Shown: positions 9,900-30,039, counted from the stretch's first letter. The stretch: DNA of 32,000 bases from Pseudothioglobus sp. nBUS_23 (GCF_051201565.1 NZ_CP179200.1:390001-422000), one strand, 5' to 3'. The notes: generated from the sequence alone by a model not told the origin. Numbers and translations: made by a program.

Positions 9900-10670
9900 A
9901 TGAAAGCAGTAATATTAGCGGGAGGACTTGGAACTCGATTAAGTGAAGAGACAGTAATAAAGCCAAAGCCAATGGTAGAAGTAGGTGGTAAGCCAATTTT
10001 ATGGCATATTATGAAAATGTATTCTGCTCACGGAATTAATGAATTTATTATCTGTTGTGGGTATAAAGGCTATCTAATTAAAGAATACTTCGCAAATTAT
10101 TTTCTTCATGAGTCGGATGTAACTTTCGATATGCAACAAAATTCAATGGAGGTACATCAGGAAAGGGCAGAGCCTTGGATTGTTACCTTAGTTGATACTG
10201 GGGAAGACTCCATGACGGGTGGTAGACTTTTAAGAGTTTCTGAATATGTAGAAAAGGAAGAAGCATTTTGTTTTACATATGGAGATGGTGTTTCAGATAT
10301 TAATATTACAGAGTTAATTCAATTCCATAAAAGCCATGGCAAAGATGCAACTTTAACTGCAGCATATTCACCGGCAAGATTTGGAGCCTTGAATATTCAA
10401 AATAACCAAATACTTAGCTTTACTGAAAAACCTCAGGGAGATGGAGCCTTAATCAATGGTGGGTTTTTTGTTCTTTCTCCAAAAGTGATTAAAAGACTTA
10501 GTGGAGATGACTGTATTTGGGAGCAAGAGCCTCTAAATGGGTTAGCTTCTGATGGTAATTTAATGGCATATGCTCACAATGGTTTTTGGCAGCCTATGGA
10601 TACTTTACGAGAAAAGGTCTACCTGCAAGATTTATGGGATGAAGGTAAGGCTCCATGGAAAGTATGGTAG
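9900..10670 (+). CDS. rfbF: Glucose-1-phosphate cytidylyltransferase
   Basis: The sequence [37 protein letters not shown] and the 256-aa length match the RfbF/DdhA family. Confidence 0.9.
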
Positions 10671-10676
10671 TCAAAA

Positions 10677-11747
10677 ATGAATGAAAATAATTTTTGGAAA
10701 GGCAAGAGAGTTTTTTTAACTGGGCATACTGGATTTAAAGGAAGCTGGCTTTCTATTTGGCTTAACTCAATGGGGTGTATTGTTAGGGGTTATGCACTTC
10801 TCCCTCCAAGTTCTCCTTCTCTATATACTGCTGCAAAAGTTGAAGATTTGATAGATTCTCAAATTGGTGATATTAGGAACTATCATTTACTTTATGAAGC
10901 TATGAATAAATTCAATCCTGATATTGTTTTTCATATGGCTGCTCAATCTTTGGTAAGAAAATCATACTCAAACCCTATTGAGACATATGAAGTTAATATA
11001 ATTGGAACGGCCAATGTTTTAGAAGCTGCAAGAAGTTGTGAGAATTTAAAAGTAGTAATTAACATTACTACAGATAAATGTTACGAAAATGAAGATTTTG
11101 ATAAAAGCTTTAAAGAGACTGACCCAATGGGAGGATATGACCCTTACAGCTCAAGTAAGGGCTGTGCTGAAATAATAACATCAGCTTACAGGAGGTCTTT
11201 TTATAATGAGCTTGGTATTGGGCTCGCTTCTGCAAGAGCTGGCAATGTAATTGGTGGAGGTGATTGGGCCAAAGATCGTCTTATTCCTGATATCTTAAGA
11301 TCTTTTGAGGATAAAAAACCAGTTTTAATTCGAAGTCCAAACGCTACGAGACCTTGGCAGCATGTTCTCGAGCCTTTATCAGGGTATCTAAAATTGGCTA
11401 AAGAAATTTATTTTGACTCTTATTCGTTTTCTGAAGGATGGAATTTTGGTCCAAAAGATTCAGATATTAAAACCGTAGAATGGATAATTGATAAAATGAG
11501 TTCAAAGTGGCCTAATTCTTCTTGGAAAATTGACGATAATCCTAATCCTCATGAATCATCCTTTTTGAAATTAGATATTTCAAAAGCTAAATTAAAATTA
11601 GATTGGACGCCAACATGGCAGCTGAATTTTGCTTTAGAAAAAATTATTAATTGGCATTTTGATTGGTTAGAAAATAAGAATATGCAGGAAGTATGTATTG
11701 CAGAGATTAAAGAATATATGATGGAAATAAAACATGAAATCCGCTGA
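10677..11747 (+). CDS. rfbG: CDP-glucose 4,6-dehydratase
   Basis: The sequence FLTGHTGFKGSWLSIWL and a YSSSK catalytic motif are present, the length is 356 aa, and it lies directly after rfbF. Confidence 0.9.
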   Translation: MNENNFWKGKRVFLTGHTGFKGSWLSIWLNSMGCIVRGYALLPPSSPSLYTAAKVEDLIDSQIGDIRNYHLLYEAMNKFNPDIVFHMAAQSLVRKSYSNPIETYEVNIIGTANVLEAARSCENLKVVINITTDKCYENEDFDKSFKETDPMGGYDPYSSSKGCAEIITSAYRRSFYNELGIGLASARAGNVIGGGDWAKDRLIPDILRSFEDKKPVLIRSPNATRPWQHVLEPLSGYLKLAKEIYFDSYSFSEGWNFGPKDSDIKTVEWIIDKMSSKWPNSSWKIDDNPNPHESSFLKLDISKAKLKLDWTPTWQLNFALEKIINWHFDWLENKNMQEVCIAEIKEYMMEIKHEIR

Positions 11748-13050
11748 AGAACTTAGATTAGAAATATCAGCACTTGTAAACGAGTATGCTGAGATTAAAT
11801 ACAAAGAAAATACATTTAAGCCTGGAAGGTCAATTATTCCTGCTTCGGGCAAAGTTATAGGTTCAACAGAGCTTCAATACATGGTTGATGCTTCTTTGGA
11901 TGGATGGTTAACAAGTGGAAGATTCAATAAAAAGTTTGAAAGTGAATTGGCTAAATTTATTGGTATCGAACACCTTATAACTGTAAATTCAGGGTCTTCT
12001 GCAAATTTAGTGGCATTCTCAACTCTAACTTCTTCTAAACTAGGTGAAAGGGCTATTAAGAAAGGGGATGAGGTAATTGGAGTTGCTGCTGGATTTCCTA
12101 CAACTGTCAACCCAATAATTCAATTTGGTGCAATACCTGTTTTTGTTGATGTTGATTTAACGACTCATAATATTAATGCAGATTTAATTGAGTCTGCGAT
12201 ATCTCCAAAAACTAAAGCAATTATGCTTGCACACACTTTGGGTAATCCTTTTAATTTAAAAAAAATTCACGAATTATGTGCCAAGTATGATTTATGGTTA
12301 GTTGAGGATTGTTGTGATGCTTTAGGAGCCACTTATGATGATAAGCATGTAGGTACTTTTGGTGATATTGCAACTTGTAGCTTTTATCCAGCGCATCATA
12401 TTACAATGGGAGAGGGCGGTGCTGTTTTTACAAATAACTCTGAACTAATTTCAATTGCTGAATCTTTTAGAGACTGGGGTCGTGATTGCTATTGCGATCC
12501 TGGATGTGACAATACTTGTGGCAAAAGGTTTGATCAAAACTTGGGAGACCTGCCGGCAGGTTATGATCATAAATATACTTATTCTCATTTAGGCTATAAC
12601 TTAAAAATTAGTGATATGCAGGCTGCATGTGGACTTGCTCAATTGAAGAGGCTAGATGAATTCATTGAAAAAAGAAACTCAAATTTTTCTTATCTTTTAA
12701 AGCGAATGTCTACACTATCTGAGTTTATAGAATTTACTGAGCCATCAGAAAATTCAAAACCTTCTTGGTTTGGCTTTCCAATAACAATGAAAAAATCCTC
12801 AATATTCCGTCGTGTTGATTTATTAAAGTATCTAGATAGCAATATGGTTAATACTCGCCTTTTATTTGCTGGAAATTTAACTAAGCAACCTTATTTTTCA
12901 GGGGTTGAATACAGAGTTGTAGGTGATTTAACTAATACTGATATTACAATGAATCAGACCTTTTGGATTGGAGTATATCCTGGACTAACGACTCGTCATT
13001 TGGATTATATTGCTGAAAAGTTTGAAGAGTTTTTTGGATTATCATTTTAG
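11734..13050 (+). CDS. rfbH: RfbH/DdhC (E1)-type PMP-dependent CDP-4-keto-6-deoxyglucose 3-dehydrase
   Basis: This is a 438-aa DegT-fold protein. The usual Schiff-base lysine position reads SFYPAHHITMGEGG, with His instead of Lys, which is the hallmark of E1-type dehydrases. Confidence 0.8.
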   Translation: MKSAEELRLEISALVNEYAEIKYKENTFKPGRSIIPASGKVIGSTELQYMVDASLDGWLTSGRFNKKFESELAKFIGIEHLITVNSGSSANLVAFSTLTSSKLGERAIKKGDEVIGVAAGFPTTVNPIIQFGAIPVFVDVDLTTHNINADLIESAISPKTKAIMLAHTLGNPFNLKKIHELCAKYDLWLVEDCCDALGATYDDKHVGTFGDIATCSFYPAHHITMGEGGAVFTNNSELISIAESFRDWGRDCYCDPGCDNTCGKRFDQNLGDLPAGYDHKYTYSHLGYNLKISDMQAACGLAQLKRLDEFIEKRNSNFSYLLKRMSTLSEFIEFTEPSENSKPSWFGFPITMKKSSIFRRVDLLKYLDSNMVNTRLLFAGNLTKQPYFSGVEYRVVGDLTNTDITMNQTFWIGVYPGLTTRHLDYIAEKFEEFFGLSF

Positions 13051-13059
13051 AGATTAGGT

Positions 13060-13758
13060 ATGAAAAATGTGCTAGTTTTTGGGGGTTCAGGTCAAATTGG
13101 ATCAACTATAGTAGAAAAATTTATTTCTAAGAGCTGGAATACTCTTTCAGTAGGGAGAAAAAAGATAATTTCTGAGTCATATTTATCTTGGGATCCTTTT
13201 CAAGTTATGCCAACTAAAGACTTTGAAAAATTATCTCAATTTGGAGTTTTTGATGCAGTTTGTTGGTCACAAGGCATGAATTTAAGTGATAACATTTTCA
13301 ACTACAAGAAAGATCTACATGAAGATATTTATAGGGCAAATGTTCTTTATATTCTAGAATCACTTAAATTTCTAATTAATAGTAATTTATTAAATAAACC
13401 TGCTAAATTTTGTGTGATAAGTTCTATTTGGCAAGATTTATCAAAGGAAAATAAGTTGTCTTATTCAATATCGAAAGCAGCTTTAAAAGGTTTGGTTTTA
13501 TCTTTAAGTAATGATATGGCAGAAGATGGACACTTAATTAATGCCGTCCTTCCAGGAGTTATTGATTCTCCTATGACTAATGCTAATCTTTCATCAACAC
13601 AAATTTCAAATGTTCGAAATGCATCTAAATTTAAGCGATTAGCGAGTTTAAAAGATGTGGCTAATTCTGTTTACTCTCTATGTTCTGAAGAAAATACAGG
13701 CATTACGGGTAATTTTGTAAAAATTGATTTGGGATTTTCAAATGTTCGAAACATTTGA
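13060..13758 (+). CDS. Classical short-chain dehydrogenase/reductase
   Basis: It has VFGGSGQIGSTI, the catalytic YSISKAALKGL, and NAVLPGVIDSPM, and is 232 aa long. Confidence 0.75.
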   Translation: MKNVLVFGGSGQIGSTIVEKFISKSWNTLSVGRKKIISESYLSWDPFQVMPTKDFEKLSQFGVFDAVCWSQGMNLSDNIFNYKKDLHEDIYRANVLYILESLKFLINSNLLNKPAKFCVISSIWQDLSKENKLSYSISKAALKGLVLSLSNDMAEDGHLINAVLPGVIDSPMTNANLSSTQISNVRNASKFKRLASLKDVANSVYSLCSEENTGITGNFVKIDLGFSNVRNI

Positions 13759-14812
13759 AGTAGAGTCCTCAATTAAAAACTACAAAGTTTTAATTGAAAA
13801 AGGATCGGTTCACAATTTTATTAATGATAAATCATTTTTTATAATAGATTCACATGTATATGATTTATGGCCTTCTATTAATATTAAGGAATGCATAAAA
13901 ATTGATGCAAAAGAAAGTAATAAAAGCTTAAAAATAGTATCAGAAGTAATTAAAAATTTAAAAGATTCAGGAGCTAATAGATCCAGTTCAATTCTAGCAA
14001 TAGGAGGTGGTATAACACAAGATCTTTCTACCTTTTGCGCATCTACTTTTATGAGAGGCATTAGCTGGGTATATGTTCCTACTACTTTATTAGGTATGAC
14101 CGACTCTTGCATTGGGGGTAAATCATCCATCAATGTAGGGAGGTACAAAAATATTATTGGAAACTACTATCCACCTGAAATAGTTGTTGTGGATACTAAT
14201 TTTTGTAAAACGTTGACCATTCAACAGATACTTGAGGGTCTCTTTGAGGCTGTTAAGATTTCATACGCACATTCTGAATTTAGATTTGAAAAGCATATTT
14301 CATATGTAAATCATAATCAAGATTTATATTGTTTAGACTTTGAAAAAATAGTTTTTAATAGCTTAATTTCAAAAAAAGAAATTATTGAAGAAGATGAATT
14401 CGATGAAGGTATTAGACTTTTGTTAAACTTTGGCCATACCTTTGGACACGCGCTTGAGGGCGCTAGTAGGTTTAAAATTAGTCACGGTGTTGCAGTAGGA
14501 TTGGGGATGATTGCAGCCTTTAATTTGTCTATCAGTTTAAATTTAATTCAAGAAGAGAATATTAAAGCTAGAAAATTAATTAATCATTTATATTATTTAT
14601 TAGAAATGGTTGAGGGTTTAAGTTATTTAGTTAATAATATTGATATGAAAGTTGCCTATGATAATTTTAAATCTGACAAAAAACACCTTAAAGGCGTTTT
14701 TTTTATGATTTTGTTTGATAATGAAGGCAAACTCATTAGACACAAGTTAAATAAAAGTGTCACAAATGAAATATTAATTATTAATTCTTTTGAGTCTCTT
14801 AAAACGATATGA
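13742..14812 (+). CDS. 3-dehydroquinate-synthase-like enzyme (sugar phosphate cyclase / DHQS fold)
   Basis: The motifs GGGITQDL, DSCIGGKSSIN, NFGHTFGHALE and SHGVAVGLGM match the DHQS nucleotide and metal ligands. I prefer the ATG at 13742; the ORF track starts at the TTG at 13724. Confidence 0.75.
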   Translation: MFETFEVESSIKNYKVLIEKGSVHNFINDKSFFIIDSHVYDLWPSINIKECIKIDAKESNKSLKIVSEVIKNLKDSGANRSSSILAIGGGITQDLSTFCASTFMRGISWVYVPTTLLGMTDSCIGGKSSINVGRYKNIIGNYYPPEIVVVDTNFCKTLTIQQILEGLFEAVKISYAHSEFRFEKHISYVNHNQDLYCLDFEKIVFNSLISKKEIIEEDEFDEGIRLLLNFGHTFGHALEGASRFKISHGVAVGLGMIAAFNLSISLNLIQEENIKARKLINHLYYLLEMVEGLSYLVNNIDMKVAYDNFKSDKKHLKGVFFMILFDNEGKLIRHKLNKSVTNEILIINSFESLKTI

Positions 14813-16575
14813 AATATAGTGATCAATTAGCTGAATGGCTTTTAGAAATGGGCTACACCCACTGCTTTTTTGTAAGTGGAGGTAATAGTATGCACCTAGT
14901 AGAAAGTTTCAGTAGAAAATTAGATTGTAGGGCAGTCATACATGAGGTTGCAGCTGGTATTGCTGCAGAATATTTTAATGAATCAAGTGAGGAAGGTAAG
15001 GCTTTAGCTCTTGTAACTGCTGGTCCTGGTATTACTAATATAATTTCAGCTATTGCGGGTGCTTATCTAGAAAGTCGAGAGTTGCTTGTCATTGGCGGAC
15101 AGGTTAAAACTTTTGATTTATCGTTAGGAAAGTTGCGCCAAAATGGCATTCAGGAAATTGATGGTGTAAGTATTGCGAGTTCAATTTGCAGTTCGTCAAC
15201 TACAATGACTCAAGCTTGGAATAAGGAAAAATTTGGAAAGTTTATTTGTAGCTCTGAAAATGGAAGAAAATCTCCAGTTTTTTTAGAGATACCACTTGAT
15301 ATTCAGGCTAAAAATGTTGACTTTACTAATAAAATTTATGAGCCAAAAGTTCATAACTTTAAATCAATAACTCAAAGTCAATTATTTAGATTAGTTAGCA
15401 GAATAAAGTCTTCTCAAAGGCCAATAATTATGATTGGTGGAGGCTTAAGTAGAGAGACAGCAACAGAAATACAAAATCTTTTTACCGATTCTTCTGTGCC
15501 CTTTGTAACCACCTGGAATGGGATGGATCGAATTGGATCAAATAATCCAAATTATGTGGGTCGACCAAATACATGGGGGCAAAGAAGTGCAAATGTACTT
15601 TTACAACAAGCTGATTTATTGGTTGCATTTGGAACACGATTAGGAATGCAACAGACTGGTTTTAATTGGCAAGAATTTATCCCAAATGGGAAAATTATAC
15701 AAATTGATATAGATAAAAATGAACTTGAAAAAGGACACCCCAAAATTGATCTTGGCCTAGAGTTGGATGCAAACGACACTATAATTAAGCTATTGAAATC
15801 GGAATTAGGGGATCATACTGTATGGTTAAAATTTTGTAAAAAAGTTAGAAACCTTTTGCCTCTTGTTGAAAACAGTACTCTTAATAACAGATCTGAGTTT
15901 ATTTCACCCCACTTGTTTGTTCAAAAACTTTCTCAAATAGCGTGTAAAGACGATATTGTCATTCCTTGTAGCAGTGGTGGAGCCTTTACGATAATGATGC
16001 AGGTTTTTGAGCAAAAATTTGGACAAAAAATTATTACCAATAAAGGCCTTGCTTCAATGGGCTATGGTCTTTCAGGAGCAATTGGCGCGTCAATAGCAAA
16101 TCCTAATAAAAGAGTTTTTTTAATAGAAGGTGATGGAAGTTTCTCTCAAAATCTTCAAGAGATTGGAACTGCAGCAATAAATAACTGTAATTTAAAGATT
16201 TTTATATTTGATGATGGGGGTTATGCCTCAATTAGAATGACTCAAAGAAACTACTTTAATGGAAGGTATGTTGGTTGTGATACTTTAACAGGCTTGGGTT
16301 TGCCTGACTGGAAAAAACTTTTTGAGGCTTGGAATGTTCCTGTAGTTAAAATTAGTGCTAAATCATTTAAAGAGAAATCAATTGAAGTTAATCTTGAAGA
16401 ACCTGGTTTTGCTGCGTTTATAATACCTATTGATCCAGAACAAACTTATTTACCAAAAATTACGAGTCAGCTTTCAGAGGCTAGAGGTATGATTTCGAAT
16501 CCTCTTCATCTTATGACTCCAGATATAGAAGAACCAATAAAATCAGAAGTTTTCAAATATATACTTAAGGAGTAA
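14809..16575 (+). CDS. Three-domain thiamine-diphosphate enzyme (acetolactate-synthase large-subunit fold; YerE-like candidate)
   Basis: At 588 aa, it has an N-terminal Pyr domain (VTAGPGITN) and a ThDP/Mg motif (GDGSFSQNLQEIGTAAINNCNLKIFIFDDGGY). No small regulatory subunit gene lies nearby. Confidence 0.8.
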   Translation: MKYSDQLAEWLLEMGYTHCFFVSGGNSMHLVESFSRKLDCRAVIHEVAAGIAAEYFNESSEEGKALALVTAGPGITNIISAIAGAYLESRELLVIGGQVKTFDLSLGKLRQNGIQEIDGVSIASSICSSSTTMTQAWNKEKFGKFICSSENGRKSPVFLEIPLDIQAKNVDFTNKIYEPKVHNFKSITQSQLFRLVSRIKSSQRPIIMIGGGLSRETATEIQNLFTDSSVPFVTTWNGMDRIGSNNPNYVGRPNTWGQRSANVLLQQADLLVAFGTRLGMQQTGFNWQEFIPNGKIIQIDIDKNELEKGHPKIDLGLELDANDTIIKLLKSELGDHTVWLKFCKKVRNLLPLVENSTLNNRSEFISPHLFVQKLSQIACKDDIVIPCSSGGAFTIMMQVFEQKFGQKIITNKGLASMGYGLSGAIGASIANPNKRVFLIEGDGSFSQNLQEIGTAAINNCNLKIFIFDDGGYASIRMTQRNYFNGRYVGCDTLTGLGLPDWKKLFEAWNVPVVKISAKSFKEKSIEVNLEEPGFAAFIIPIDPEQTYLPKITSQLSEARGMISNPLHLMTPDIEEPIKSEVFKYILKE

Positions 16576-16577
16576 AA

Positions 16578-17363
16578 GTGAACAAATTAGAAAAGGAAAT
16601 AATTGATGTTGTTAAGTGCTTGAAAAATGAGTATGGAGTTTTTGAAATAAAAGCAGAATTTGAGGCTGAAGGAAGTCGAATGGAAGAAATGATGAGGCTC
16701 AAAGATATTACAGGCCATGTCGGCCTTCCGATAATATTAAAAATTGGGGGTGTAGAAGCCGTGACAGATGTTTATAATGCATTAGCACTAGGTGTTAAAG
16801 GATGCATTGCACCAATGGCTGAAACTAAATATGCTCTATCAAAATTTACTGATTTAATTGATAATTTTGTTGCGCCAGATAATGCTTCTGATATTGAATT
16901 TGGAGCAAATATAGAAACAATAACTGCGTGTAATAATTTTAATGATATGCTTTCAATTTCGAATATTTCTAATTTATCAGGAATTACAATTGGGAGAGTT
17001 GATTTAGTTGGATCTATGGGATTAAGCAGAGATTCGATTAATACTTCAAATGAGGTGAAAAGTTTATGTAAGTCAGTATTTTCTTTAGCCAAAAACAATG
17101 GTTTCAAAACAGCTATGGGTGGAGGAATTGGAACAGACGCCTTTTCAGTAATAAGTGAAATGAATAGTGATAATCTAATTGATAAATATGAAACTAGAAA
17201 AGTAGTTTTTCCAGCTGAATCAGTTAAATATGGAGATAAATCAATACTTAAAGCAGTAGAATTTGAATTGCTATGGCTTAAGAGTAAAGAGCGATATTAT
17301 TCAAGAATCAAGTTAGAAGATAAAAGCAGGATACAAATGCTGGAAAAAAGACTTAATAATTAA
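16578..17363 (+). CDS. HpcH/HpaI aldolase / citrate-lyase-beta-like TIM-barrel protein
   Basis: A GTG start is preceded by aaggag (16567-16572). Aligned by eye, the family blocks are present: CIAPMAETKYAL, GANIET and ITIGRVDLVGSMGL. Confidence 0.5.
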   Translation: MNKLEKEIIDVVKCLKNEYGVFEIKAEFEAEGSRMEEMMRLKDITGHVGLPIILKIGGVEAVTDVYNALALGVKGCIAPMAETKYALSKFTDLIDNFVAPDNASDIEFGANIETITACNNFNDMLSISNISNLSGITIGRVDLVGSMGLSRDSINTSNEVKSLCKSVFSLAKNNGFKTAMGGGIGTDAFSVISEMNSDNLIDKYETRKVVFPAESVKYGDKSILKAVEFELLWLKSKERYYSRIKLEDKSRIQMLEKRLNN

Positions 17364-17377
17364 ACTATAATTTTGTT

Positions 17378-18349
17378 TTGTCTTCATTATTAATAATAGG
17401 TGGAACTGGTTTTTTTGGGAAATCTTTTCTTGATGCATATAAAAGAGGATTACTAGATAAGTGGAATATAAAAGAAATTATAATAATTTCACGCAATGTA
17501 AGAAGTTTTCAAGAAAATTATCCAGAACTTTGTAATTCATCAGTTCAATTTATTAATGAAGATATTGGTAAAGTAGATAGGTTGCCGTTTGCAGATTTTG
17601 TAATTCATGCTGCAGCTTCTACAGATGCTTCACGCTATAAAACACACAATAAACAAGAAAAAAAAAATATTATTAAGGGCACTCTTAATTATTGCCGACT
17701 TGCTACTAAATTTCATAAAGAGAGCAAAATTGTGTTTTGCAGTTCTGGTGCAGTTTATGGATATCAGCCAGAACATTCAAAGTATTTGGATGAAGATATG
17801 CCATTTGGAAACATTGAAGACCTTAATGAAATCAAAAAATCATATGCATATGCTAAAAGAGATGCAGAATTTGCAATTCAAAAATTAGGACAGTCGGGAC
17901 TTAAAGTTAGTATTGCAAGATGCTTTTCGTTTGTTGGTAAGTATTTGCCTAGAGGTCAACACTTCGCAATAGGAAATTTTATATCTGATGGATTAGCCAG
18001 AAGAGATATTATTGTAAAAGCCGATAGTAAAGTTTATAGAAGCTATATGTATGCAGATGATCTTGTTGAATGGCTTTTAACTTTGGCTGATGATGCTAAT
18101 ATAAATTGCCCAATATTTAATGTAGGATCAGATCAAGAGATTGAAATCAGAGACTTAGCACAAGTTGTTTCAAATTTTTTTAACGTCGGTGTTAAATATT
18201 TGAGTGCCATAAATAGTACTGAAATTGATCGTTATATACCCTCTATAGAAAAAGCTCAAAAACAGCTAGGATTAAAGGAAAAATTTGATATTAATAAGTC
18301 CATAATCAATACTGCAAGTAATTTTGATGATAGGCCTCTACAAAATTAA
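17378..18349 (+). CDS. NAD-dependent epimerase/dehydratase or ketoreductase (extended SDR)
   Basis: A TTG start is the only possibility, because there is an in-frame stop at 17357. It has LLIIGGTGFFGKS and YAYAK motifs and is 323 aa long. Confidence 0.75.
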   Translation: MSSLLIIGGTGFFGKSFLDAYKRGLLDKWNIKEIIIISRNVRSFQENYPELCNSSVQFINEDIGKVDRLPFADFVIHAAASTDASRYKTHNKQEKKNIIKGTLNYCRLATKFHKESKIVFCSSGAVYGYQPEHSKYLDEDMPFGNIEDLNEIKKSYAYAKRDAEFAIQKLGQSGLKVSIARCFSFVGKYLPRGQHFAIGNFISDGLARRDIIVKADSKVYRSYMYADDLVEWLLTLADDANINCPIFNVGSDQEIEIRDLAQVVSNFFNVGVKYLSAINSTEIDRYIPSIEKAQKQLGLKEKFDINKSIINTASNFDDRPLQN

Positions 18350-18520
18350 TTTAAAACTTCAAACCCGACACAGTTGAAATCATAATTGTCGAAATTAGAA
18401 ATAGCTTAAGCAATAATAATATTTCATTAATCTTTAATTTGAATCACATTTTATTAACATAAAATGTTGACTAGCTCTATTAAAGTTTTTTTAAATTAAC
18501 TTTTGTTGAATAAATTAAAA

Positions 18521-19534
18521 ATGAAAATAATCAAAGTTTCATCAGGAAAATCTGAGCTTAATAATTTATTATTAAGGCAAACATCAGGAATGAGTGGAGT
18601 TTGGGGGGATTGTAAGTTTATTTTAAATAGTGAAATAAAAAAATGTGATTGGTGGTTTGTTTTACATGGATCAGGTTTAATCAAGAATGAAGAGTGTTTG
18701 TGTGATCCAAATCATATAGTTTATGTTTCTATGGAGCCAAATGAAACAATGAGCAAGGTTTCAAATAAATTTATGCAGCAGTTTTCTCACCTTGTGACCT
18801 GCGATCGTGATGTAGAGCATTCAAATAAAATTTATCAAAATTGGCTCACATGGTGGGTTGGAATTAATTTAATTAAATCTAAAGATGGCATCTTTTCTAA
18901 GGATTATAATTTAGATTACGATGATTTAACAAATATTAAGCCATTAAAAAAGCTTAATAAGATTTCAATAGTTTATTCAAATAAAAACATGTCTGAAGGA
19001 CATTCAAAAAGAATTAAATTCTTAAATGCATTGATTAATTCAAATATTTCTCACTATATAGATGTCTTCGGAGATGGATTTACTCCAATTCCTGACAAAT
19101 GGGATGCAGTAATGAATTATAAATATCATTTAGTTATTGAAAATGAGATACAAGAAGATTATTGGTCAGAAAAGCTTGCTGATTCATTTCTGGGCTTTGC
19201 ATATCCAATCTACTCTGGATGTCCAAATATCAATAAATATTTTGATGAAAATTCAATGACAGTAATTGATATTTCTAATTTTGAAATTTCTTTAAAAAAA
19301 ATTAAAGACGTAATAGATGGGAATCTTTATGATAGAAATATTAGAGAGATAGAAGTTGCTAGAAATCAGATACTTAATGAGTACAATATTTTTAATTTAA
19401 TGGCTAAGATGTCAACATCTGAGGCATCATTAAAAAAGAAAATCCAACTTAAAACTAATTATTATTATTCAGATTCATTCTTTAAGAAGATTGCAAGATT
19501 GATTTTTAAGAAATTAAGAACATTTATTTTTTAA
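18521..19534 (+). CDS. GT10-like glycosyltransferase (fucosyltransferase-type motif)
   Basis: The sequence KYHLVIENEIQEDYWSEKLADSFLGFAYPIYSG matches the GT10 FENS..YVTEK..DA...P.Y.G signature. I prefer the ATG at 18521 over the TTG at 18503. Confidence 0.6.
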   Translation: MKIIKVSSGKSELNNLLLRQTSGMSGVWGDCKFILNSEIKKCDWWFVLHGSGLIKNEECLCDPNHIVYVSMEPNETMSKVSNKFMQQFSHLVTCDRDVEHSNKIYQNWLTWWVGINLIKSKDGIFSKDYNLDYDDLTNIKPLKKLNKISIVYSNKNMSEGHSKRIKFLNALINSNISHYIDVFGDGFTPIPDKWDAVMNYKYHLVIENEIQEDYWSEKLADSFLGFAYPIYSGCPNINKYFDENSMTVIDISNFEISLKKIKDVIDGNLYDRNIREIEVARNQILNEYNIFNLMAKMSTSEASLKKKIQLKTNYYYSDSFFKKIARLIFKKLRTFIF

Positions 19535-20463
19535 TGTTAAATTTATTACAAATAGTAATTTTATCTAGAGATCGGCCTAATTTCCTAAGCAAAACTATAG
19601 AGTCCGCAACTAATCTTAATGCATCTGATATATCTTATGAAATAATTATTTCAGATAATTCCGAATCAGATGATGTAAACAATCTATTCAAAGAAAACTA
19701 TTCTAAAAGCCATAAAATTTCATATAGAAGAAGGTTTCCAACGATTTCTTCAAGTAGCCATTATCAATTAGTAATTGAAGAGTTAAAGTCTGAGTATGCC
19801 GTAATTTTTCATGATGATGATATTTTTCATCCTGACTATTTGTTGAAAGTAAGTTCAATTTTATCAAATCAATCTTTTTCTGCTATTGGTTGCAATGCAC
19901 TAGTTTTTAAAAAGGAAATTGAAGATGGTTTTAAAAAAATGCATGATTTTAGTCAAATCAAAAAATTTAATAGAAAAAAAGATTTTATTAGACAATACTT
20001 AGTTGGAAATGGTGGTGTTGCGCCTTTTCCGGGGTATCTTTATAAGACTGAATATTTAAAAAAAATTTCATTTTTAGACTTACCATCCGGTAAGCACGCA
20101 GATGTTGCATTATTAGCATCACTAATTAATTATGGTGAAATTATATGGCTTGTTGAAACATTAATATACTACAGAGCGCATGTCGGTAGTGATAGTGCAT
20201 CTGAAGTTTTAGTAGATAGGTTGTCGTTATTGAGATACATGTTTTCTAATGGGATAAGCAGAAGTTCAAAATCAGTTTTTTTATTTAGATATTTTTATTG
20301 GTTTAACTGGCTAAGTCAAAAAGGTTTATCCACTAAAGATATTTCTAATTGGCGTTATCGTAAAGCTTTAAAATTTTTATTTTTTAGCGGCCCTAGATTT
20401 ATATTTTCCACGTATTTTATTAAAGTAATTCTAAAAAGAGTTAAAAATAAATTAACCAATTAA
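19534..20463 (+). CDS. Glycosyltransferase family 2
   Basis: The N-terminal GT-A pattern is present (IVILSRDRPNFLSKTIES...IIISDNSESDD, plus a DxD-type HDDDIF). Its start overlaps the previous stop (TAATG). Confidence 0.7.
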   Translation: MLNLLQIVILSRDRPNFLSKTIESATNLNASDISYEIIISDNSESDDVNNLFKENYSKSHKISYRRRFPTISSSSHYQLVIEELKSEYAVIFHDDDIFHPDYLLKVSSILSNQSFSAIGCNALVFKKEIEDGFKKMHDFSQIKKFNRKKDFIRQYLVGNGGVAPFPGYLYKTEYLKKISFLDLPSGKHADVALLASLINYGEIIWLVETLIYYRAHVGSDSASEVLVDRLSLLRYMFSNGISRSSKSVFLFRYFYWFNWLSQKGLSTKDISNWRYRKALKFLFFSGPRFIFSTYFIKVILKRVKNKLTN

Positions 20464-20505
20464 CTCACTAAAATAGACCATACAAAACTACTCCACAGTA
20501 ACTCA
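20452..20505. repeat. glmS-3'-end-like bipartite module, copy 1 (pseudo-att)
   Basis: It consists of ttaaccaat (20452-20460), 23 nt of spacer, and aaaactactccacagtaactca (20484-20505). The minus strand reads GTT ACT GTG GAG TAG TTTT, which is V-T-V-E-stop. Confidence 0.65.
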
Positions 20506-20897
20506 GAAGTATTGAGGACATTCTTGGAATAAGCAATGATTTGATAATATTTATATTACATTACCCTTAATTTCTTATAAACAACTTTTCCTTCATATCT
20601 TATGACAACTTACTTTTATTGAATTTACTATTTACTCCTAATCTTATTCACCTTTTAAAATAACTAATCATATAAGTAAATTTAAATTTTTATTATTAAT
20701 TCATTTTATGAATTTGTTTTTGTTATTTAAAAAAATTTTTAGTAATTATCAATTTTAGAATTACTGAAATTTAAATTTTAAAGTAATGGATAATTGACAT
20801 TATAAAATTATTTGATTTAAGAATTTTTTTTGGAGTTTTGCTGCTTTTTCAATATTATTTTGAGAAAGAATTTTATGTCTAAAATGGAGTTTAATTC

Positions 20898-23456
20898 ATG
20901 AAAATTGTTATTACTGGTGGGCTGGGATATATTGGGACAGAACTATGCAAGTTATATTCTGGAGAAGCCAGATTTAAAGAAATAATTGTAATTGATAATA
21001 TATTTGCATCCGAGAGGGTCTCACAATTAAGGAATTGGGGGATAAATTTCATTCATGGAGATATTCTTGACTTGCCTTTAATCAAAGAAGTCTTGAAAGA
21101 TTCTGATATTGTTTACCATTTAGCTGGAATCACTGATGTTGCATCAACAAAAACCGAAGCCAAAGAGGATAAAGAGCGGTTAATAGAAGAAGTTGGTATT
21201 ACTGGCACAAGAAATGTAATTAACTCAATGTCAAAAAATGCAAAATTAATTTTCCCTTCCACCCATGTTGTTTATGAAGGTTTAAAGGAAACTAAATTTG
21301 ATATTGTTGAAACTGAACCTCTTCTTCCTGTTCTTTCATATTCTACTGGGAAGGCTGAATCCGAGATAGATATTCAAAATTCAAAAGTAAATTATGTTAT
21401 CTTGAGGCTTGCAACTGTTTTTGGATATTCTGCTGCAGATACGATGCGAATAAACATTATGCCAAATTTGTTTTCTAAGATTGCCTCTCAAAATGGAACT
21501 ATTAGGCTTTTTTCTGGTGGAAAGCAACATAAAAGTTTAGTTTCGGTTTTTGATGTTGTCCGATCGATGAAGTTTATGGCAGAAAAGAATGACATTTCGA
21601 GAGAAGTTTTTCACTGTTCAAGTGATAATACTACAGTAAAGAAAGTTGCTGAGATTTGTAAAGAAATTAATAGTGAAGTTAAATTAATTGAGACTGATGA
21701 TGAGATCCCTAATTTAGGATATACAACATCAAACAAAAAAATTCTGTCTACTGGGTTTGATTTTAGATATCCTTTGAAGGAATCCCTAAAGGAAATGATT
21801 AAGCATTGGTCCAAGAAAAATCAATTTAATACTTTAGAGTTAATTCAAAAAGGACAGAAAGAGTTTATTGATGATAGGGGAAAGATAAGTAATTTTGAGC
21901 TAACTGAGCCAATAAATTTAATTGGCTATATTGAGTCAAAAGCAGGTACTGTGAGGGCAAATCATTATCATCCAATTCAAGAGCAAAAATGTTTGTTAAT
22001 TTCAGGACAATATATTAGTGTACTAAAAGACTTGTCTGATTCAAATTCTGTAATTGAGACAAATATCATTAATCCAGGAGACATAGCAGTTATACATCCT
22101 CATGTTGCACATACGATGGTTTTCCTAGAGGATTCTGTTTTTCTTAATCTCGTTAGAGGGGAAAGAGAGCATGAAAACTATGGAGTCACTCATACTATCT
22201 TTTACGAGCTTGTCAATGAAAGCTTTAGAAAGCAGATTGTTGATTATTACAAGGCTGAGTGTAGAGTTTGTGGAAGAAAAGACCTTAGAGAAGTAATTTC
22301 ACTGGGGTTGTCACCACTAGCAAATAGCTTATTAAAAGAAAAGAGTCAAGCTGAAACTTTATATCCATTAGAGTTGAACTCATGCCCAAACTGCTTTAAT
22401 TGCCAACTTTCATTTACGGTTCCAGCTAATGAAATGTTTGATGATTATCTTTATGTTTCTTCTACAAGTAAAGTTTTTAGAGATCATTTTTCAGAAATGG
22501 CAATTAAGTTCATTAAAGACTTTAAATTAGATGAAAAAAGTTTCGTTGTGGACATTGGCAGCAATGATGGAGTTTTTTTGGCTCCATTGAAAAATGCCGG
22601 TGTTAGTGTTTTAGGAGTTGACCCAGCAAAAAATTTAGCTGACTTAGCAAATTCAAAGGGTTTAGATACTATGCATGGTTATTTCAATAGCCAAATAGCT
22701 GATGAAATCATTTTGTTAAAAGGAAAGGCTGATATTGTAACTGCATTCAATGTTTTTGCTCATGCGGATGATTTGAAATCAATTGCAAAAAATGTTTTTA
22801 AAATCATGAAGAAAAACGGTGTTTTTATTATTGAAGTTCAATATTTTGCAGATACAATAAGAGACCTCACATTTGATAATATTTATCATGAACATGTTAA
22901 TTATTGGTCTGTTAATTCGCTGCAATTTTTTTGTAATAGTCTAAATTTAATTTTAGTGAAAATAGAGCATGTTGAAACTCATGGTGGCTCAATTAGGGCA
23001 TTTATATCTCAAAATGATAAGTTAATTGATAAAAGTGTTGAAGAATTCCTTACAGAAGAAAAAAAGCAAGATTTGCATTCTTTTTCAACCCTGAAAAAAT
23101 TTGCAACTAGAATTGGTGAATTAAAAAACTCAACTATAACCAAAATTAATCATCTGAAATCCCAAGGGAAAACAATCGTTGGCTATGGGTCTCCAGCAAA
23201 GGCTACTACTGTTCTCAATTATTATGGCATTGATAATGAGATTATTGACTATATTATTGAAGATAATGAATTAAAACATAACCTGTTTCTCCCTGGAATG
23301 AGAATACCAATCAAATCAAAGTCTGAAGCTTTGAGAAATCCTCCTGACTTCATATTAGTTTTAGCTTGGAATTTTTTAGAGGATATTAAGGCTAATAATC
23401 CTGAATTAATTCAGAAAGGAAGTAAATTTATTACTCTTAAGGATTTAAATTGGTAG
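20898..23456 (+). CDS. Tri-domain fusion: extended SDR + cupin (CapF/WxcM-like) + NDP-hexose C-methyltransferase (TylCIII/NovU type)
   Basis: Residues 1 to ~310 carry ITGGLGYIGTEL and YSTGK. Residues ~320-440 are a cupin (DDRGKISNF...RANHYH...HPHVAHTM). From residue ~450 there is a Cys4 zinc region (CRVCG...CPNCFNC), a SAM motif (VVDIGSNDGVF) and the C-methyltransferase C-terminal domain (IVGYGSPAKATTVLNYYGI). A GGAG Shine-Dalgarno lies 8 nt upstream of the ATG. Confidence 0.8.
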   Translation: MKIVITGGLGYIGTELCKLYSGEARFKEIIVIDNIFASERVSQLRNWGINFIHGDILDLPLIKEVLKDSDIVYHLAGITDVASTKTEAKEDKERLIEEVGITGTRNVINSMSKNAKLIFPSTHVVYEGLKETKFDIVETEPLLPVLSYSTGKAESEIDIQNSKVNYVILRLATVFGYSAADTMRINIMPNLFSKIASQNGTIRLFSGGKQHKSLVSVFDVVRSMKFMAEKNDISREVFHCSSDNTTVKKVAEICKEINSEVKLIETDDEIPNLGYTTSNKKILSTGFDFRYPLKESLKEMIKHWSKKNQFNTLELIQKGQKEFIDDRGKISNFELTEPINLIGYIESKAGTVRANHYHPIQEQKCLLISGQYISVLKDLSDSNSVIETNIINPGDIAVIHPHVAHTMVFLEDSVFLNLVRGEREHENYGVTHTIFYELVNESFRKQIVDYYKAECRVCGRKDLREVISLGLSPLANSLLKEKSQAETLYPLELNSCPNCFNCQLSFTVPANEMFDDYLYVSSTSKVFRDHFSEMAIKFIKDFKLDEKSFVVDIGSNDGVFLAPLKNAGVSVLGVDPAKNLADLANSKGLDTMHGYFNSQIADEIILLKGKADIVTAFNVFAHADDLKSIAKNVFKIMKKNGVFIIEVQYFADTIRDLTFDNIYHEHVNYWSVNSLQFFCNSLNLILVKIEHVETHGGSIRAFISQNDKLIDKSVEEFLTEEKKQDLHSFSTLKKFATRIGELKNSTITKINHLKSQGKTIVGYGSPAKATTVLNYYGIDNEIIDYIIEDNELKHNLFLPGMRIPIKSKSEALRNPPDFILVLAWNFLEDIKANNPELIQKGSKFITLKDLNW

Positions 23457-23543: not shown

Positions 23544-23888
23544 TTGAAGGTACATCAAATACCTGAGATTATTCCATACCTCGAGTTTTCAATGGAGTTC
23601 CAATCCAACAAACTCATCTATCAAAAAGAATACACTAAACGACAACAAATCATTTATCTTCTTATTCATCATCTTCACGATACAGAAGGGTGGGGTTACA
23701 GAAAGATATCACAATGGTTGAATCAGAGTGGAATAAAGACCTATAGAGGGAAGAACTGGTTCACTTCATCTGTTATCTCAGTCTTAAAGAGAAAACACGA
23801 AAGAGACCTAATTAATGAACAGATCAGAAATCAACATTTCCCAAGCAAGGTCTCAAAGTTTGAGGTGAATTACTATGTTTTTGATTGA
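23544..23888 (+). CDS. Small protein consisting only of a 'Recombinase' domain (probable remnant of a large serine recombinase)
   Basis: The sequence QQIIYLLIHHLHDTEGWGYRKISQWLNQSGIKTYRGKNWFTSSVISVLKRK follows the recombinase-domain pattern (helper-protein-like HTH ... G..W....V..iL.n). There is no room upstream for a catalytic resolvase domain. The start is ambiguous between the TTG at 23544 and the ATG at 23592. Confidence 0.5.
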   Translation: MKVHQIPEIIPYLEFSMEFQSNKLIYQKEYTKRQQIIYLLIHHLHDTEGWGYRKISQWLNQSGIKTYRGKNWFTSSVISVLKRKHERDLINEQIRNQHFPSKVSKFEVNYYVFD

Positions 23889-23931: not shown

Positions 23932-24219
23932 ATGGGTTATGAAATAGGATTTTTATTGGGGTCAATGGTCGACCCTTCAATGCTAATTGGTTCTTTATTA
24001 ATTGGAATCTTTGTTAAGTCATACTCAAAAGTTATTTTCTTTGCTATTTTGTATACAATAGTTATTGAAGTAATTCTGCTCTACGTAATGAGCAGACTTG
24101 AAATATATCATACGATTTTTGTATATAGATTTATTGGAACAATAATAGAGGCAAGTATATTTTTCGGTCTTAAATCTATATTTAAAAAAAAGGACAAAAA
24201 TACTAACGAATTATTATGA
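23932..24219 (+). CDS. Small integral membrane protein (about three predicted transmembrane helices), function unknown
   Basis: The 95-aa protein has three long hydrophobic stretches and a lysine-rich tail. Its stop overlaps the next start (ATGA). Confidence 0.55.
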   Translation: MGYEIGFLLGSMVDPSMLIGSLLIGIFVKSYSKVIFFAILYTIVIEVILLYVMSRLEIYHTIFVYRFIGTIIEASIFFGLKSIFKKKDKNTNELL

Positions 24220-24956: not shown

Positions 24957-24971
24957 TATGAAAAAAAATAA

Positions 24972-30001: not shown

Positions 30002-30039
30002 TTGTATTTATAATGTAATTACAATATAATTACATTATG
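30002..30039 (+). promoter_or_regulatory. Putative mazE promoter and operator
   Basis: A perfect 10-bp inverted repeat (taatgtaatt at 30011-30020, aattacatta at 30028-30037) has a 7-nt spacer. An internal palindrome tgtaattaca lies at 30014-30023. The direct repeats taattaca sit 11 bp apart. Promoter-like elements are ttgtat (30002-30007), a 17-nt spacer and tataat (30025-30030). The ATG is at 30037. Confidence 0.5.

What the first reader, a model, noticed from the sequence alone, without database searches (positions are those of the whole stretch)
9900..18349. The CDP-3,6-dideoxyhexose core (rfbFGH) lacks E3 and is coupled to DHQS-like, ThDP, aldolase and two SDR genes
**Established.** RfbF/DdhA, RfbG/DdhB and RfbH/DdhC (E1) make the CDP-4-keto-3,6-dideoxyhexose precursor, and E1 normally needs the [2Fe-2S]/flavin reductase E3 (DdhD).

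**Seen.**
- RfbH here has the E1 His-for-Lys signature (SFYPAHHITMGEGG).
- No E3-like ORF exists anywhere in the 32 kb.
- Five tightly packed genes follow directly (overlaps at 13742/13758 and 14809/14812, and a 2-nt gap at 16575/16578). They are a classical SDR, a dehydroquinate-synthase-fold enzyme with all ligand motifs intact, a 588-aa three-domain ThDP enzyme, an HpcH/HpaI-like aldolase and an extended SDR.

**Context.** The only precedent I know for a ThDP enzyme acting on this precursor is YerE, with the reductase YerF, in yersiniose A synthesis. YerE attaches a two-carbon branch at C4. That pathway does not use a DHQS-like cyclase or an aldolase.

**Inference.** This block makes a more elaborate branched, chain-extended or even carbocyclic dideoxy sugar, conceptually like caryophyllose or caryose. 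I cannot match it to any characterised route.
Basis: partly seen in the sequence, partly recalled or inferred. Interest (0 to 1): 0.8.

Follow-up and report, generated by a model that had tools for sequence, protein, structure and literature searches.

The report
Long-branched dideoxy sugar operon (caryophyllose type)
This eight-gene operon in a marine Pseudothioglobus most likely builds a cell-surface 3,6-dideoxy sugar carrying a long hydroxylated carbon branch, like caryophyllose of Mycobacterium marinum; the kind of pathway is already known, and the one unassigned part is a dehydroquinate-synthase-like enzyme paired with a reductase.

Summary
Genes at 9900-18349 are rfbF, rfbG, rfbH (E1 type, with the His and the [2Fe-2S] cysteine motif intact), a classical SDR, a DHQS-like enzyme, a ThDP enzyme, an HpcH-fold aldolase and an extended SDR. 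They are tightly packed, and no E3 gene lies in the 32 kb.

- Aldolase + YerE-like ThDP enzyme + reductase acting on CDP-4-keto-3,6-dideoxyglucose is the published scheme for erwiniose, caryophyllose and gastriose (Steitz 2022).
- The M. marinum caryophyllose sub-cluster (MMAR_2329-2336) is annotated with the same gene types, including a DHQS-family protein.
- The cassette is conserved. In 32 related loci from five phyla the SDR and DHQS-like genes are adjacent, usually with the aldolase, the ThDP enzyme and often rfbFGH. True aroB loci show no such linkage.
- In sister loci the SDR + DHQS-like pair is replaced by a HAD phosphatase.

My best reading has four steps.
1. The aldolase makes a DAHP-like phosphorylated keto acid.
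2. The DHQS-like enzyme and the SDR remove the phosphate by elimination and reduction, leaving a terminal methyl.
3. The ThDP enzyme grafts the chain onto C4.
4. The extended SDR reduces the new ketone.

E3 is absent from all these loci, as with SpnQ. This is a new member of a known kind, and the proposed DHQS-like step is untested.

The parts
9900..10670 (+). rfbF/ddhA, glucose-1-phosphate cytidylyltransferase
   Evidence: TIGR02623 equivalog, 462.6 bits against a cut-off of 300. It is 70-77% identical to the first gene of the same cassette in L001 and L002.
10677..11747 (+). rfbG/ddhB, CDP-glucose 4,6-dehydratase
   Evidence: TIGR02622 equivalog, 485.5 bits against a cut-off of 278.
11734..13050 (+). 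rfbH/ddhC, the E1-type PMP and [2Fe-2S] CDP-4-keto-6-deoxyglucose 3-dehydrase
   Evidence: NF011936, 737 bits against a cut-off of 423. His221 replaces the Lys. Cys194-X57-Cys252-X1-Cys254-X7-Cys262 matches the published E1 cluster motif.
13060..13758 (+). Classical FabG-like SDR ketoreductase. Proposed to reduce the keto group left after phosphate elimination.
   Evidence: Matches adh_short_C2 and adh_short. GGSGQIG and S...YxxxK are intact. It lies directly upstream of the DHQS-like gene in 30 of 32 related loci. The function is inferred.
13742..14812 (+). DHQS-like enzyme. Proposed NAD+/metal-dependent phospho-lyase acting on a DAHP-like 2-keto-3-deoxy acid phosphate.
   Evidence: Matches DHQ_synthase and DHQS_C. 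TIGR04425 scores 299 bits (cut-off 400) and aroB TIGR01357 scores 253 bits (cut-off 305). All DHQS ligand and catalytic residues are identical to those of 48 true AroB sequences. Synteny with the SDR, aldolase and ThDP genes is conserved. The pair is replaced by a HAD phosphatase in sister loci.
14809..16575 (+). YerE-like ThDP carboligase. Proposed to decarboxylate the keto acid and add the acyl chain to C4 of the CDP-4-keto sugar.
   Evidence: Three ThDP domains. The best solved relatives are JanthE (8rph, 241 bits) and 5ahk (187 bits), ahead of acetolactate synthases at 168 bits or less. All acetolactate synthase models score far below their cut-offs. The HE...GDG motifs are present.
16578..17363 (+). 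HpcH/HpaI-fold class II (metal-dependent) pyruvate aldolase. Proposed to condense pyruvate with an aldose phosphate.
   Evidence: The family hits PF03328 in 14 of 14 members. A profile search of the PDB finds HpcH/HpaI aldolases best. The AlphaFold model has pLDDT 90.6, and Foldseek finds 3qz6, HpaI, HpcH and YfaU at TM about 0.6. Glu113 and Asp142 align with stretches of solved HpcH/HpaI aldolases that I recall holding their metal ligands.
17378..18349 (+). Extended SDR. Proposed YerF-like reductase of the C1' ketone of the new branch.
   Evidence: Matches the Epimerase family. GGTGFFG and YxxxK are intact. A homologue is found within the held flanks (up to 10 kb each side) in 20 of 32 related loci. 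The role is inferred from the YerF/ErwF precedent.
18503..20463 (+). GT10-like (18503-19534) and GT2 (19534-20463) glycosyltransferases, candidate transferases for the branched sugar
   Evidence: Pfam matches are Glyco_transf_10 at E 5e-7 and Glycos_transf_2 at E 6e-9. GT10 and GT2 genes also sit next to the cassette in L002, L003 and L090. This is weak evidence, based on context only.

Best explanation
The block is one operon for a nucleotide-activated 3,6-dideoxyhexose that carries a long hydroxylated carbon branch at C4. The product is a caryophyllose-type sugar for the cell-surface polysaccharide.

**Acceptor arm.** The enzyme families are shown; the electron donor is inferred.
- RfbF, RfbG and the E1-type RfbH make CDP-4-keto-3,6-dideoxyglucose.
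- The electrons E1 needs come from a reductase encoded outside the locus, such as a general ferredoxin or flavodoxin system. SpnQ works this way.

**Donor arm.** This is inferred.
1. The HpcH-fold aldolase condenses pyruvate with an aldose phosphate, most likely erythrose 4-phosphate. The product is a DAHP-like 2-keto-3-deoxyheptonate 7-phosphate.
2. The DHQS-like enzyme uses DHQS chemistry: transient NAD+ oxidation, then beta-elimination of phosphate. This strips the phosphate and leaves a 6-keto, 7-methyl end.
3. The SDR, which is translationally coupled to the DHQS-like gene, reduces that ketone. The result is 2-keto-3,7-dideoxyheptonate.

**Joining.** This is inferred from characterised homologues.
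- The YerE-like ThDP enzyme decarboxylates the keto acid and adds the six-carbon acyl group to the C4 ketone.
- The extended SDR reduces the new ketone, giving a 4-C-(1,3,4,5-tetrahydroxyhexyl) branch.
- The neighbouring glycosyltransferases then install the sugar.

**Confidence by step.**
- General aldolase / ThDP / reductase branching scheme: about 0.75.
- DHQS-like + SDR as a terminal-deoxygenation module acting after the aldolase: about 0.45.
- Exact chain length: about 0.4.
For: - **Precedent.** The published scheme and enzymology cover ErwE, MMAR_2332 and MyGE with aldolase-derived keto acids.
- **Same gene types in a genetically linked cluster.** The M. marinum LOS sub-cluster is annotated as DHQS family protein (MMAR_2329), aldolase (2331), ThDP enzyme (2332), GT2 (2333), RfbF (2334), RfbH (2335) and RfbG (2336). 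Knock-outs of 2331-2333 lose caryophyllose.
- **ThDP ORF.** It is closest to YerE-like structures.
- **Conserved synteny.** In 32 non-redundant loci from Acidobacteria, Alpha- and Betaproteobacteria, Actinobacteria and Cyanobacteria, the counts are SDR 31, ThDP 28, aldolase 27, extended SDR 20, RfbF and RfbG 15 each, RfbH 13. The order of all eight genes is the same in Methyloradius palustris and in a metagenome contig.
- **DHQS-like active site.** The protein keeps every DHQS active-site residue, including the phosphate binders and the Lys/Arg that I recall binding the DAHP carboxylate. This points to a 7-carbon keto-acid phosphate as substrate.
- **HAD swap.** In three loci with the same aldolase and ThDP families, the SDR + DHQS-like pair is replaced by a HAD-IA phosphatase. 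Five other loci have the pair. The precursor therefore most likely carries a phosphate that is removed either by hydrolysis or by elimination.
- **Gene order.** In most related loci the order aldolase, SDR/DHQS-like or HAD, then ThDP follows the proposed pathway order. In this window the aldolase gene lies after the ThDP gene instead.
- **Other parts.** The aldolase fold is confirmed. The catalytic motifs of both SDRs are intact.
Against: - Nothing here has been tested biochemically.
- I could not obtain the M. marinum or R. palustris sequences. The link to caryophyllose rests on annotation names, not on measured orthology. A search from an actinobacterial family member returned no Mycobacterium protein among its best 120 hits.
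- A DHQS-like enzyme with a fully conserved active site might simply cyclise its substrate. I know of no non-cyclising member of this superfamily.
- The published proposal places the aldolase on a free deoxy-aldehyde, not on a sugar phosphate.
- Some related loci have no rfbFGH within 10 kb, and seven use a different ThDP enzyme of about 33% identity.
- The electron donor for E1 is not identified.
Confidence: 0.6

Rival explanations
1. The end product is the same, but the order differs. The DHQS-like enzyme and the SDR act first on a small sugar phosphate such as erythrose 4-phosphate and make a terminal-deoxy aldehyde (4-deoxytetrose). The aldolase then condenses that aldehyde with pyruvate, as drawn by Steitz et al.
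For: The published scheme has the aldolase use pyruvate plus a free aldehyde, whose origin is left open. The HAD-for-DHQS swap fits this order as well, because a phosphatase could free erythrose before the aldol step.
Against: All DHQS residues that contact the seven-carbon keto acid are retained, including the Lys and Arg that I recall binding the DAHP carboxylate. That would be hard to explain for a four-carbon substrate with no carboxylate. Gene order in most loci runs aldolase, SDR, DHQS-like, ThDP. Known analogues such as KdsA/KdsC condense first and dephosphorylate afterwards (own knowledge).
Confidence: 0.2
2. The DHQS-like enzyme is a true cyclase. It makes a dehydroquinate-like carbocycle that the SDR reduces, and the final sugar carries or is fused to a carbocycle, as in caryose.
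For: The active site cannot be told apart from that of cyclising DHQS. All its best-matching solved relatives are cyclases: DHQS, DOIS and EEVS. Caryose and caryophyllose occur together in B. caryophylli (own knowledge).
Against: A dehydroquinate-like product is not a 2-keto acid, so it cannot be a donor for a YerE-like enzyme. No ligase or transferase that could attach a cyclitol is conserved in the cassette. A simple phosphatase can replace the pair, which argues that the pair's role is phosphate removal rather than ring formation. The M. marinum cluster with a DHQS-family gene makes acyclic caryophyllose.
Confidence: 0.08
3. The ThDP enzyme and the extended SDR make plain yersiniose-type C2 branches from pyruvate. 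The aldolase, SDR and DHQS-like trio makes an unrelated metabolite or a second sugar.
For: YerE itself uses pyruvate. Some related loci lack rfbFGH within 10 kb.
Against: The trio is linked to a ThDP gene in 28 of 32 loci and usually abuts it. ErwE and MMAR_2332, from clusters that contain an aldolase, reject pyruvate or prefer hydroxylated long-chain donors.
Confidence: 0.07
4. These are housekeeping aroB and ilvB-like genes that lie next to rfbFGH by chance.
For: The sequences resemble AroB and acetolactate synthase. I could not check whether the genome has another aroB.
Against: Both fall below the curated equivalog cut-offs: 253 bits against 305 for aroB, and 248 bits against 738 for the best acetolactate synthase model. 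NCBI names the protein only 'family protein'. The cassette is conserved across five phyla, while 48 true aroB loci show no such neighbours.
Confidence: 0.02

Closest known systems
Caryophyllose biosynthesis genes of Mycobacterium marinum (MMAR_2329-2336 in the LOS locus)
   Same: By annotation the gene types match: DHQS family protein, aldolase/citrate-lyase family protein, ThDP-binding protein, glycosyltransferase, G1P cytidylyltransferase, RfbH and CDP-glucose 4,6-dehydratase. No E3-like gene is listed there either. MMAR_2331-2333 are genetically required for caryophyllose.
   Different: Gene order differs. The identities of MMAR_2328, 2330, 2337 and 2338 are unknown to me. Sequence orthology was not measured. 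The host is an actinobacterium, not a marine gammaproteobacterium. In the papers I could read, no role has been assigned to MMAR_2329.
Erwiniose pathway of Pectobacterium atrosepticum (ErwE/ErwF/ErwI/ErwJ)
   Same: An aldolase makes a hydroxylated 2-keto acid. A YerE-like ThDP enzyme adds it to CDP-4-keto-3,6-dideoxyglucose, and a reductase finishes the branch.
   Different: ErwI is a BphI-type aldolase partnered with an acetaldehyde dehydrogenase, and the branch has four carbons. That cluster has no DHQS-like gene and no classical SDR.
Yersiniose A pathway (YerE/YerF) of Yersinia pseudotuberculosis
   Same: It uses the same acceptor sugar, the same ThDP carboligation at C4 and the same follow-up reduction.
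   Different: The donor is pyruvate, giving a C2 branch. It has no aldolase, no DHQS-like gene and no extra SDR. Yersinia clusters carry ddhD (E3).
3-Dehydroquinate synthase (AroB) and the sugar phosphate cyclase superfamily
   Same: The fold, the NAD+ and metal sites and every substrate-contacting residue are the same.
   Different: The score is below the aroB equivalog cut-off. Family-specific substitutions are Q93, Y111, C123, I124, S128, L208, D221, W109 and H315, plus a 5-residue insertion. The context is a polysaccharide operon. The proposed outcome is elimination without productive cyclisation, which is untested.
SpnQ (spinosyn forosamine pathway)
   Same: It is an E1-type PMP/[2Fe-2S] 3-dehydrase with no dedicated E3 partner gene. 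It uses general ferredoxin or flavodoxin reductase pairs.
   Different: SpnQ acts on a dTDP-2,6-dideoxy sugar in an actinomycete secondary-metabolite cluster.

Membership tests
CDP-3,6-dideoxyhexose core (DdhA/DdhB/DdhC/DdhD) | Glucose-1-phosphate cytidylyltransferase and CDP-glucose 4,6-dehydratase | tested here: met
   The TIGR02623 and TIGR02622 equivalog models both score well above their cut-offs.
CDP-3,6-dideoxyhexose core (DdhA/DdhB/DdhC/DdhD) | E1 dehydrase with the active-site His and the C-X57-C-X1-C-X7-C [2Fe-2S] motif | tested here: met
   NF011936 scores 737 bits. His221 and Cys194/252/254/262 are present.
CDP-3,6-dideoxyhexose core (DdhA/DdhB/DdhC/DdhD) | A dedicated E3 ([2Fe-2S] flavin reductase) encoded with the other genes | tested here: not met
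   The 32-kb window has none. Nor do the held flanks (up to 10 kb each side) of 33 related loci, or eight further loci annotated with Pfam families. The rest of the genome could not be searched.
YerE-type acyl-branched sugar clusters (Steitz 2022 scheme) | ThDP enzyme of the YerE-like subclass rather than an acetolactate synthase | tested here: met
   The best solved relatives are JanthE (241 bits) and 5ahk (187 bits), against 168 bits or less for acetolactate synthases. All acetolactate synthase models score far below their cut-offs, and no small-subunit gene is nearby.
YerE-type acyl-branched sugar clusters (Steitz 2022 scheme) | An aldolase in the cluster that can supply a functionalised 2-keto acid | tested here: met
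   The HpcH/HpaI fold and family are confirmed. The substrate is unknown.
YerE-type acyl-branched sugar clusters (Steitz 2022 scheme) | A YerF-like NAD(P)H reductase next to the ThDP gene | tested here: inconclusive
   An extended SDR with an intact catalytic motif lies in the operon. Orthology to YerF or ErwF was not measured.
YerE-type acyl-branched sugar clusters (Steitz 2022 scheme) | Carboligation of a keto acid to the C4 ketone of the CDP sugar | not testable with these tools
   This needs enzyme assays.
Caryophyllose cluster (M. marinum type) | Same set of gene families, including a DHQS-family gene | tested here: met
   This is an annotation-level comparison with supplementary Table S2 of PMC12395582.
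Caryophyllose cluster (M. marinum type) | Sequence orthology of the DHQS-like, aldolase and ThDP genes to MMAR_2329, 2331 and 2332 | not testable with these tools
   No M. marinum sequence could be retrieved. Two family searches listed no Mycobacterium protein among the best 120 hits.
Housekeeping 3-dehydroquinate synthase (AroB) | Score above the aroB equivalog cut-off | tested here: not met
   TIGR01357 scores 253 bits against a cut-off of 305. The TIGR04425 AroB-related model scores higher, at 299 bits.
Housekeeping 3-dehydroquinate synthase (AroB) | DHQS catalytic, metal-binding and substrate-binding residues | tested here: met
   R105, D121, K127, N137, E169, K172, K211, R225, N229, H232, H236, H248 and K313/K314 are identical in the family and in 48 AroB sequences.
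Housekeeping 3-dehydroquinate synthase (AroB) | It is the genome's only aroB | not testable with these tools

The most novel reading that the evidence does not exclude
The DHQS-like protein and its coupled SDR form a previously undescribed terminal-deoxygenation module. [quoted passage not shown] The SDR then traps the acyclic 6-keto product before it can cyclise. The result is the methyl-ended polyhydroxy keto acid that ThDP enzymes graft onto sugars. This would explain where the deoxy end of caryophyllose-type branches comes from, and it would be the first non-cyclising outcome in this superfamily.
Probability: 0.4. Interest if true: 0.65.

Novelty: new member of a known kind. Interest (0 to 1): 0.5.

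Why it matters
- **Distribution.** It extends long-branched caryophyllose-type sugars, so far known from a few pathogens and plant-associated bacteria, to an abundant marine SUP05-clade bacterium. It also extends them to many soil Acidobacteria, Actinobacteria and Proteobacteria, where such sugars would shape recognition by phages and grazers.
- **A testable gap.** The published branching scheme leaves open where the deoxy end of the side chain comes from. This work gives a concrete hypothesis: an aldolase, a DHQS-like enzyme and an SDR, with a HAD phosphatase as the natural alternative.
- **Biocatalysis.** The ThDP enzymes and aldolases of these cassettes are of interest for making chiral tertiary alcohols.

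Tried and rejected
**Linking to the known clusters by sequence.**
- A search from a Cellulomonas DHQS-like protein returned no Mycobacterium hit among its best 120.
- A search from an alphaproteobacterial aldolase returned no named Rhodopseudomonas or Mycobacterium hit.
It returned neither the source genome nor M. marinum.

**Literature.**
- The supplement of Steitz 2022 and the Krug 2024 cluster survey are not held.
- Three papers were searched for the DHQS carboxylate contacts without success. That point therefore rests on my own recollection of Carpenter et al. 1998.

**Scans that found nothing useful.**
- Promoter and terminator scans gave no more sites than chance.
- tRNA and Rfam scans of the window found nothing.

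**Ideas considered and dropped.**
- A phosphonate pathway (PEP mutase plus decarboxylase): there is no PEP mutase hit, and the ThDP enzyme is a full-length YerE-like protein.
- A ColD-type dehydrase that needs no E3: the Fe-S cysteines are intact.
- Housekeeping aroB and ilvB: refuted by the conserved synteny.

Full report
**Source and layout.** The DHQS-like protein is 100% identical to an NCBI protein of Pseudothioglobus sp. nBUS_23, found on a 1.79-Mb contig and named only '3-dehydroquinate synthase family protein'. The window averages about 32% G+C and is a cell-surface polysaccharide locus.
- Upstream lie bacillosamine-type genes: a PglF-like dehydratase, an aminotransferase, a NeuD/PglB-family acetyltransferase and a Bac_transf phosphotransferase. 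There are also glycosyltransferases and a divergent galU.
- The eight genes of the finding follow at 9900-18349.
- After them come a GT10-like and a GT2 glycosyltransferase and an 852-aa fusion of an SDR with a sugar C-methyltransferase.

- RfbF, RfbG and RfbH pass their NCBIfam equivalog cut-offs by wide margins.
- RfbH has the E1 signature His221. Its cysteines at 194, 252, 254 and 262 have exactly the C-X57-C-X1-C-X7-C spacing of the E1 [2Fe-2S] site (motif described). It is therefore an electron-requiring E1, not a ColD-type enzyme.
- The next five genes are packed as described. SDR and DHQS-like overlap by 17 nt, DHQS-like and ThDP share an ATGA overlap, and a 2-nt gap precedes the aldolase.
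- Both SDRs keep their cofactor and catalytic motifs.
- The weak Pfam score of the aldolase (23 bits against 25) is backed by family-wide PF03328 hits. It is also backed by a confident AlphaFold model (pLDDT 90.6, pTM 0.88) whose best structural matches are HpcH/HpaI, HpcH, YfaU and related class II pyruvate aldolases. Glu113 and Asp142 align with the stretches of those aldolases that I recall holding their metal ligands.
- No E3-like ORF exists in the window.

**The cassette is conserved.**
- The same eight genes occur in the same order in Methyloradius palustris (a betaproteobacterium) and on a metagenome contig.
- A genome-collection scan with a family alignment returned 80 loci. About 30 are family members at 35-45% identity, from Acidobacteria, Alpha- and Betaproteobacteria, Actinobacteria and a cyanobacterium. 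The rest are ordinary aroB genes.
- Among 32 non-redundant family loci, homologues lie within the held flanks (up to 10 kb each side) as follows.

| Gene | Loci (of 32) | Note |
|---|---|---|
| Classical SDR | 31 | directly upstream of the DHQS-like gene in 30 |
| ThDP enzyme | 28 | 21 are orthologous, at 50% identity or more |
| Aldolase | 27 | |
| Extended SDR | 20 | |
| RfbF, RfbG | 15 each | |
| RfbH | 13 | |

- None of the 48 true aroB loci has any of these neighbours.
Linkage is conserved, and these are not stray housekeeping genes.

**The ThDP enzyme is YerE-like.** Its best solved relatives are JanthE (8rph, 241 bits; identity confirmed) and 5ahk (187 bits), which I recall as the Pseudomonas protegens YerE. 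Acetolactate synthases follow at 168 bits or less. Every acetolactate synthase family model scores two to four times below its cut-off.

**What is already known.**
- Steitz et al. 2022 proposed, and partly demonstrated, one scheme for acyl-branched sugars. An aldolase makes a hydroxylated 2-keto acid. A YerE-like enzyme (ErwE, MMAR_2332 or MyGE) decarboxylates it and adds the chain to CDP-4-keto-3,6-dideoxyglucose. A YerF-like reductase finishes the branch.
- The caryophyllose cluster of M. marinum has an aldolase of the aldolase/citrate-lyase family (MMAR_2331).
- A 2025 review cites a survey that found more than 200 such clusters. I could not read that survey.
- So the aldolase, ThDP enzyme and extended SDR are all expected parts of a known kind of pathway.

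**Link to caryophyllose.** A supplementary table of an M. marinum transcriptome paper lists the LOS locus with current annotations:
[quoted passage not shown] - MMAR_2332, ThDP-binding protein
- MMAR_2333, GT2
- MMAR_2334, G1P cytidylyltransferase
- MMAR_2335, RfbH
- MMAR_2336, CDP-glucose 4,6-dehydratase

Mutants in MMAR_2331, 2332 and 2333 lack caryophyllose. The genetically defined caryophyllose sub-cluster therefore contains the same gene families as this window, including the DHQS-like one. This is an annotation-level match. I could not retrieve the sequences, and the papers I read assign no role to MMAR_2329.

**What the DHQS-like + SDR pair probably does.** Three observations bear on it.
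1. Compared with 48 genuine AroB sequences, the family keeps every DHQS ligand and catalytic residue. These include the phosphate binders (R105, K127, N137, K313/K314), the metal ligands (E169, H232, H248) and K211 and R225. By my recollection of the A. nidulans structure, K211 and R225 correspond to K250 and R264, which hold the DAHP carboxylate. The family differs at a handful of second-shell positions and has a 5-residue insertion. This points to a seven-carbon 2-keto-3-deoxy acid phosphate as substrate.
2. I sampled eight loci anchored on the aldolase instead of the DHQS-like gene. Five have aldolase, SDR and DHQS-like genes in a row. Three have a HAD-IA phosphatase in place of the pair, next to the same aldolase and ThDP families and, in two of them, next to RfbF/G/H-like genes. 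Two alternative ways of removing a phosphate imply a phosphorylated precursor.
3. Gene order in most of these loci (aldolase, SDR, DHQS-like, ThDP) follows a simple linear pathway. In this window and in the actinobacterial loci the order is SDR, DHQS-like, ThDP, aldolase.

The resulting proposal is as follows.
- The aldolase joins pyruvate and erythrose 4-phosphate to give a DAHP-like acid.
- The DHQS-like enzyme eliminates the phosphate.
- The SDR reduces the resulting 6-ketone to give 2-keto-3,7-dideoxyheptonate.

After ThDP transfer and reduction this gives exactly the 1,3,4,5-tetrahydroxyhexyl chain of caryophyllose. Own knowledge also bears on plausibility. The acyclic 3,7-dideoxy-2,6-diulosonate is a discrete intermediate in the archaeal DHQ pathway, and KdsA/KdsC show the condense-then-dephosphorylate logic. 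The tight coupling of the SDR and DHQS-like genes would fit trapping of a product that otherwise cyclises. All of this is inference.

**E3.** Its absence is real and general. No plant-type ferredoxin/FNR-like ORF occurs in the window, in 33 family loci or in the eight loci annotated with Pfam families. Because the Fe-S site of E1 is intact, electrons must come from elsewhere. SpnQ is the precedent: an E1-type dehydrase served by general ferredoxin or flavodoxin reductase pairs. I could not search the rest of the genome.

**Rivals.**
- The same pathway could run with the DHQS-like + SDR pair before the aldolase. This fits the published drawing but sits poorly with the conserved keto-acid-binding residues.
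- A true cyclase making a carbocycle cannot be excluded from sequence. However, a dehydroquinate-like product could not feed a ThDP carboligase, and a phosphatase could hardly replace a cyclase.
- The housekeeping reading is refuted.

**Verdict.** This is a new member of a known kind of system, the caryophyllose-type acyl-branched dideoxyhexose cluster. It contains one genuinely unassigned and testable element, the DHQS-like + SDR module.

Noticed in passing
window 20898-23456 (+): A single 852-aa ORF fuses an N-terminal extended SDR (Epimerase/RmlD-like, residues 1-260) to a C-terminal NDP-sugar C-methyltransferase (Methyltransf_13 zinc domain, a SAM domain and Methyltransf_14). This suggests a C-methyl-branched deoxy sugar is also made in this locus. 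The published R. palustris branched-sugar cluster also has a SAM-dependent methyltransferase.
   Followed up: partly
L006, L009, L012, L020, L028, L030 (also L023): A sub-group of related loci keeps the aldolase, SDR and DHQS-like trio. It pairs the trio with a different ThDP enzyme (about 33% identical), which in six of the seven loci lies beside the extended SDR. Several of these loci also have RfbF and RfbG, and RfbH is missing from all but L023. This may be a variant that branches a 6-deoxy rather than a 3,6-dideoxy sugar.
   Followed up: no
L084, L086, L087: In these sister cassettes a HAD-IA phosphatase (phosphoglycolate-phosphatase-like) replaces the SDR + DHQS-like pair beside the aldolase and ThDP genes. 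They are predicted to make a branch ending in a hydroxymethyl group instead of a methyl.
   Followed up: partly
window 23544-23888 (+); G+C dip at 18000-21000: A 114-aa ORF matches only a fragment of the serine Recombinase domain. G+C falls to 0.26-0.28 over the glycosyltransferase genes. Both hint that part of the locus was acquired horizontally and that an island boundary is nearby.
   Followed up: no
window 24216-26534 (+): Two ORFs sit between the polysaccharide genes and glmS. One is a 246-aa protein with two Adhesin_E (Haemophilus protein E-like) domains. The other is a 520-aa MORN-variant repeat protein.
   Followed up: no
window 30037-30554 (+): A 104-aa PemK/MazF-type toxin ORF is preceded by an overlapping 68-aa ORF that could be its antitoxin.
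   Followed up: no
M. marinum, literature: M. marinum strains carry another DHQS-like gene, annotated aroB_1, next to kduD-like and sugar-phosphatase genes and outside the LOS locus. At least two non-housekeeping DHQS paralogues therefore seem to exist in that species.
   Followed up: no
L085, L088: In two acidobacterial-type loci, glucose-6-phosphate dehydrogenase and 6-phosphogluconate dehydrogenase genes lie immediately upstream of the aldolase and face away from it. This could reflect supply of pentose-phosphate-pathway sugar phosphates, or it could be coincidence.
   Followed up: no
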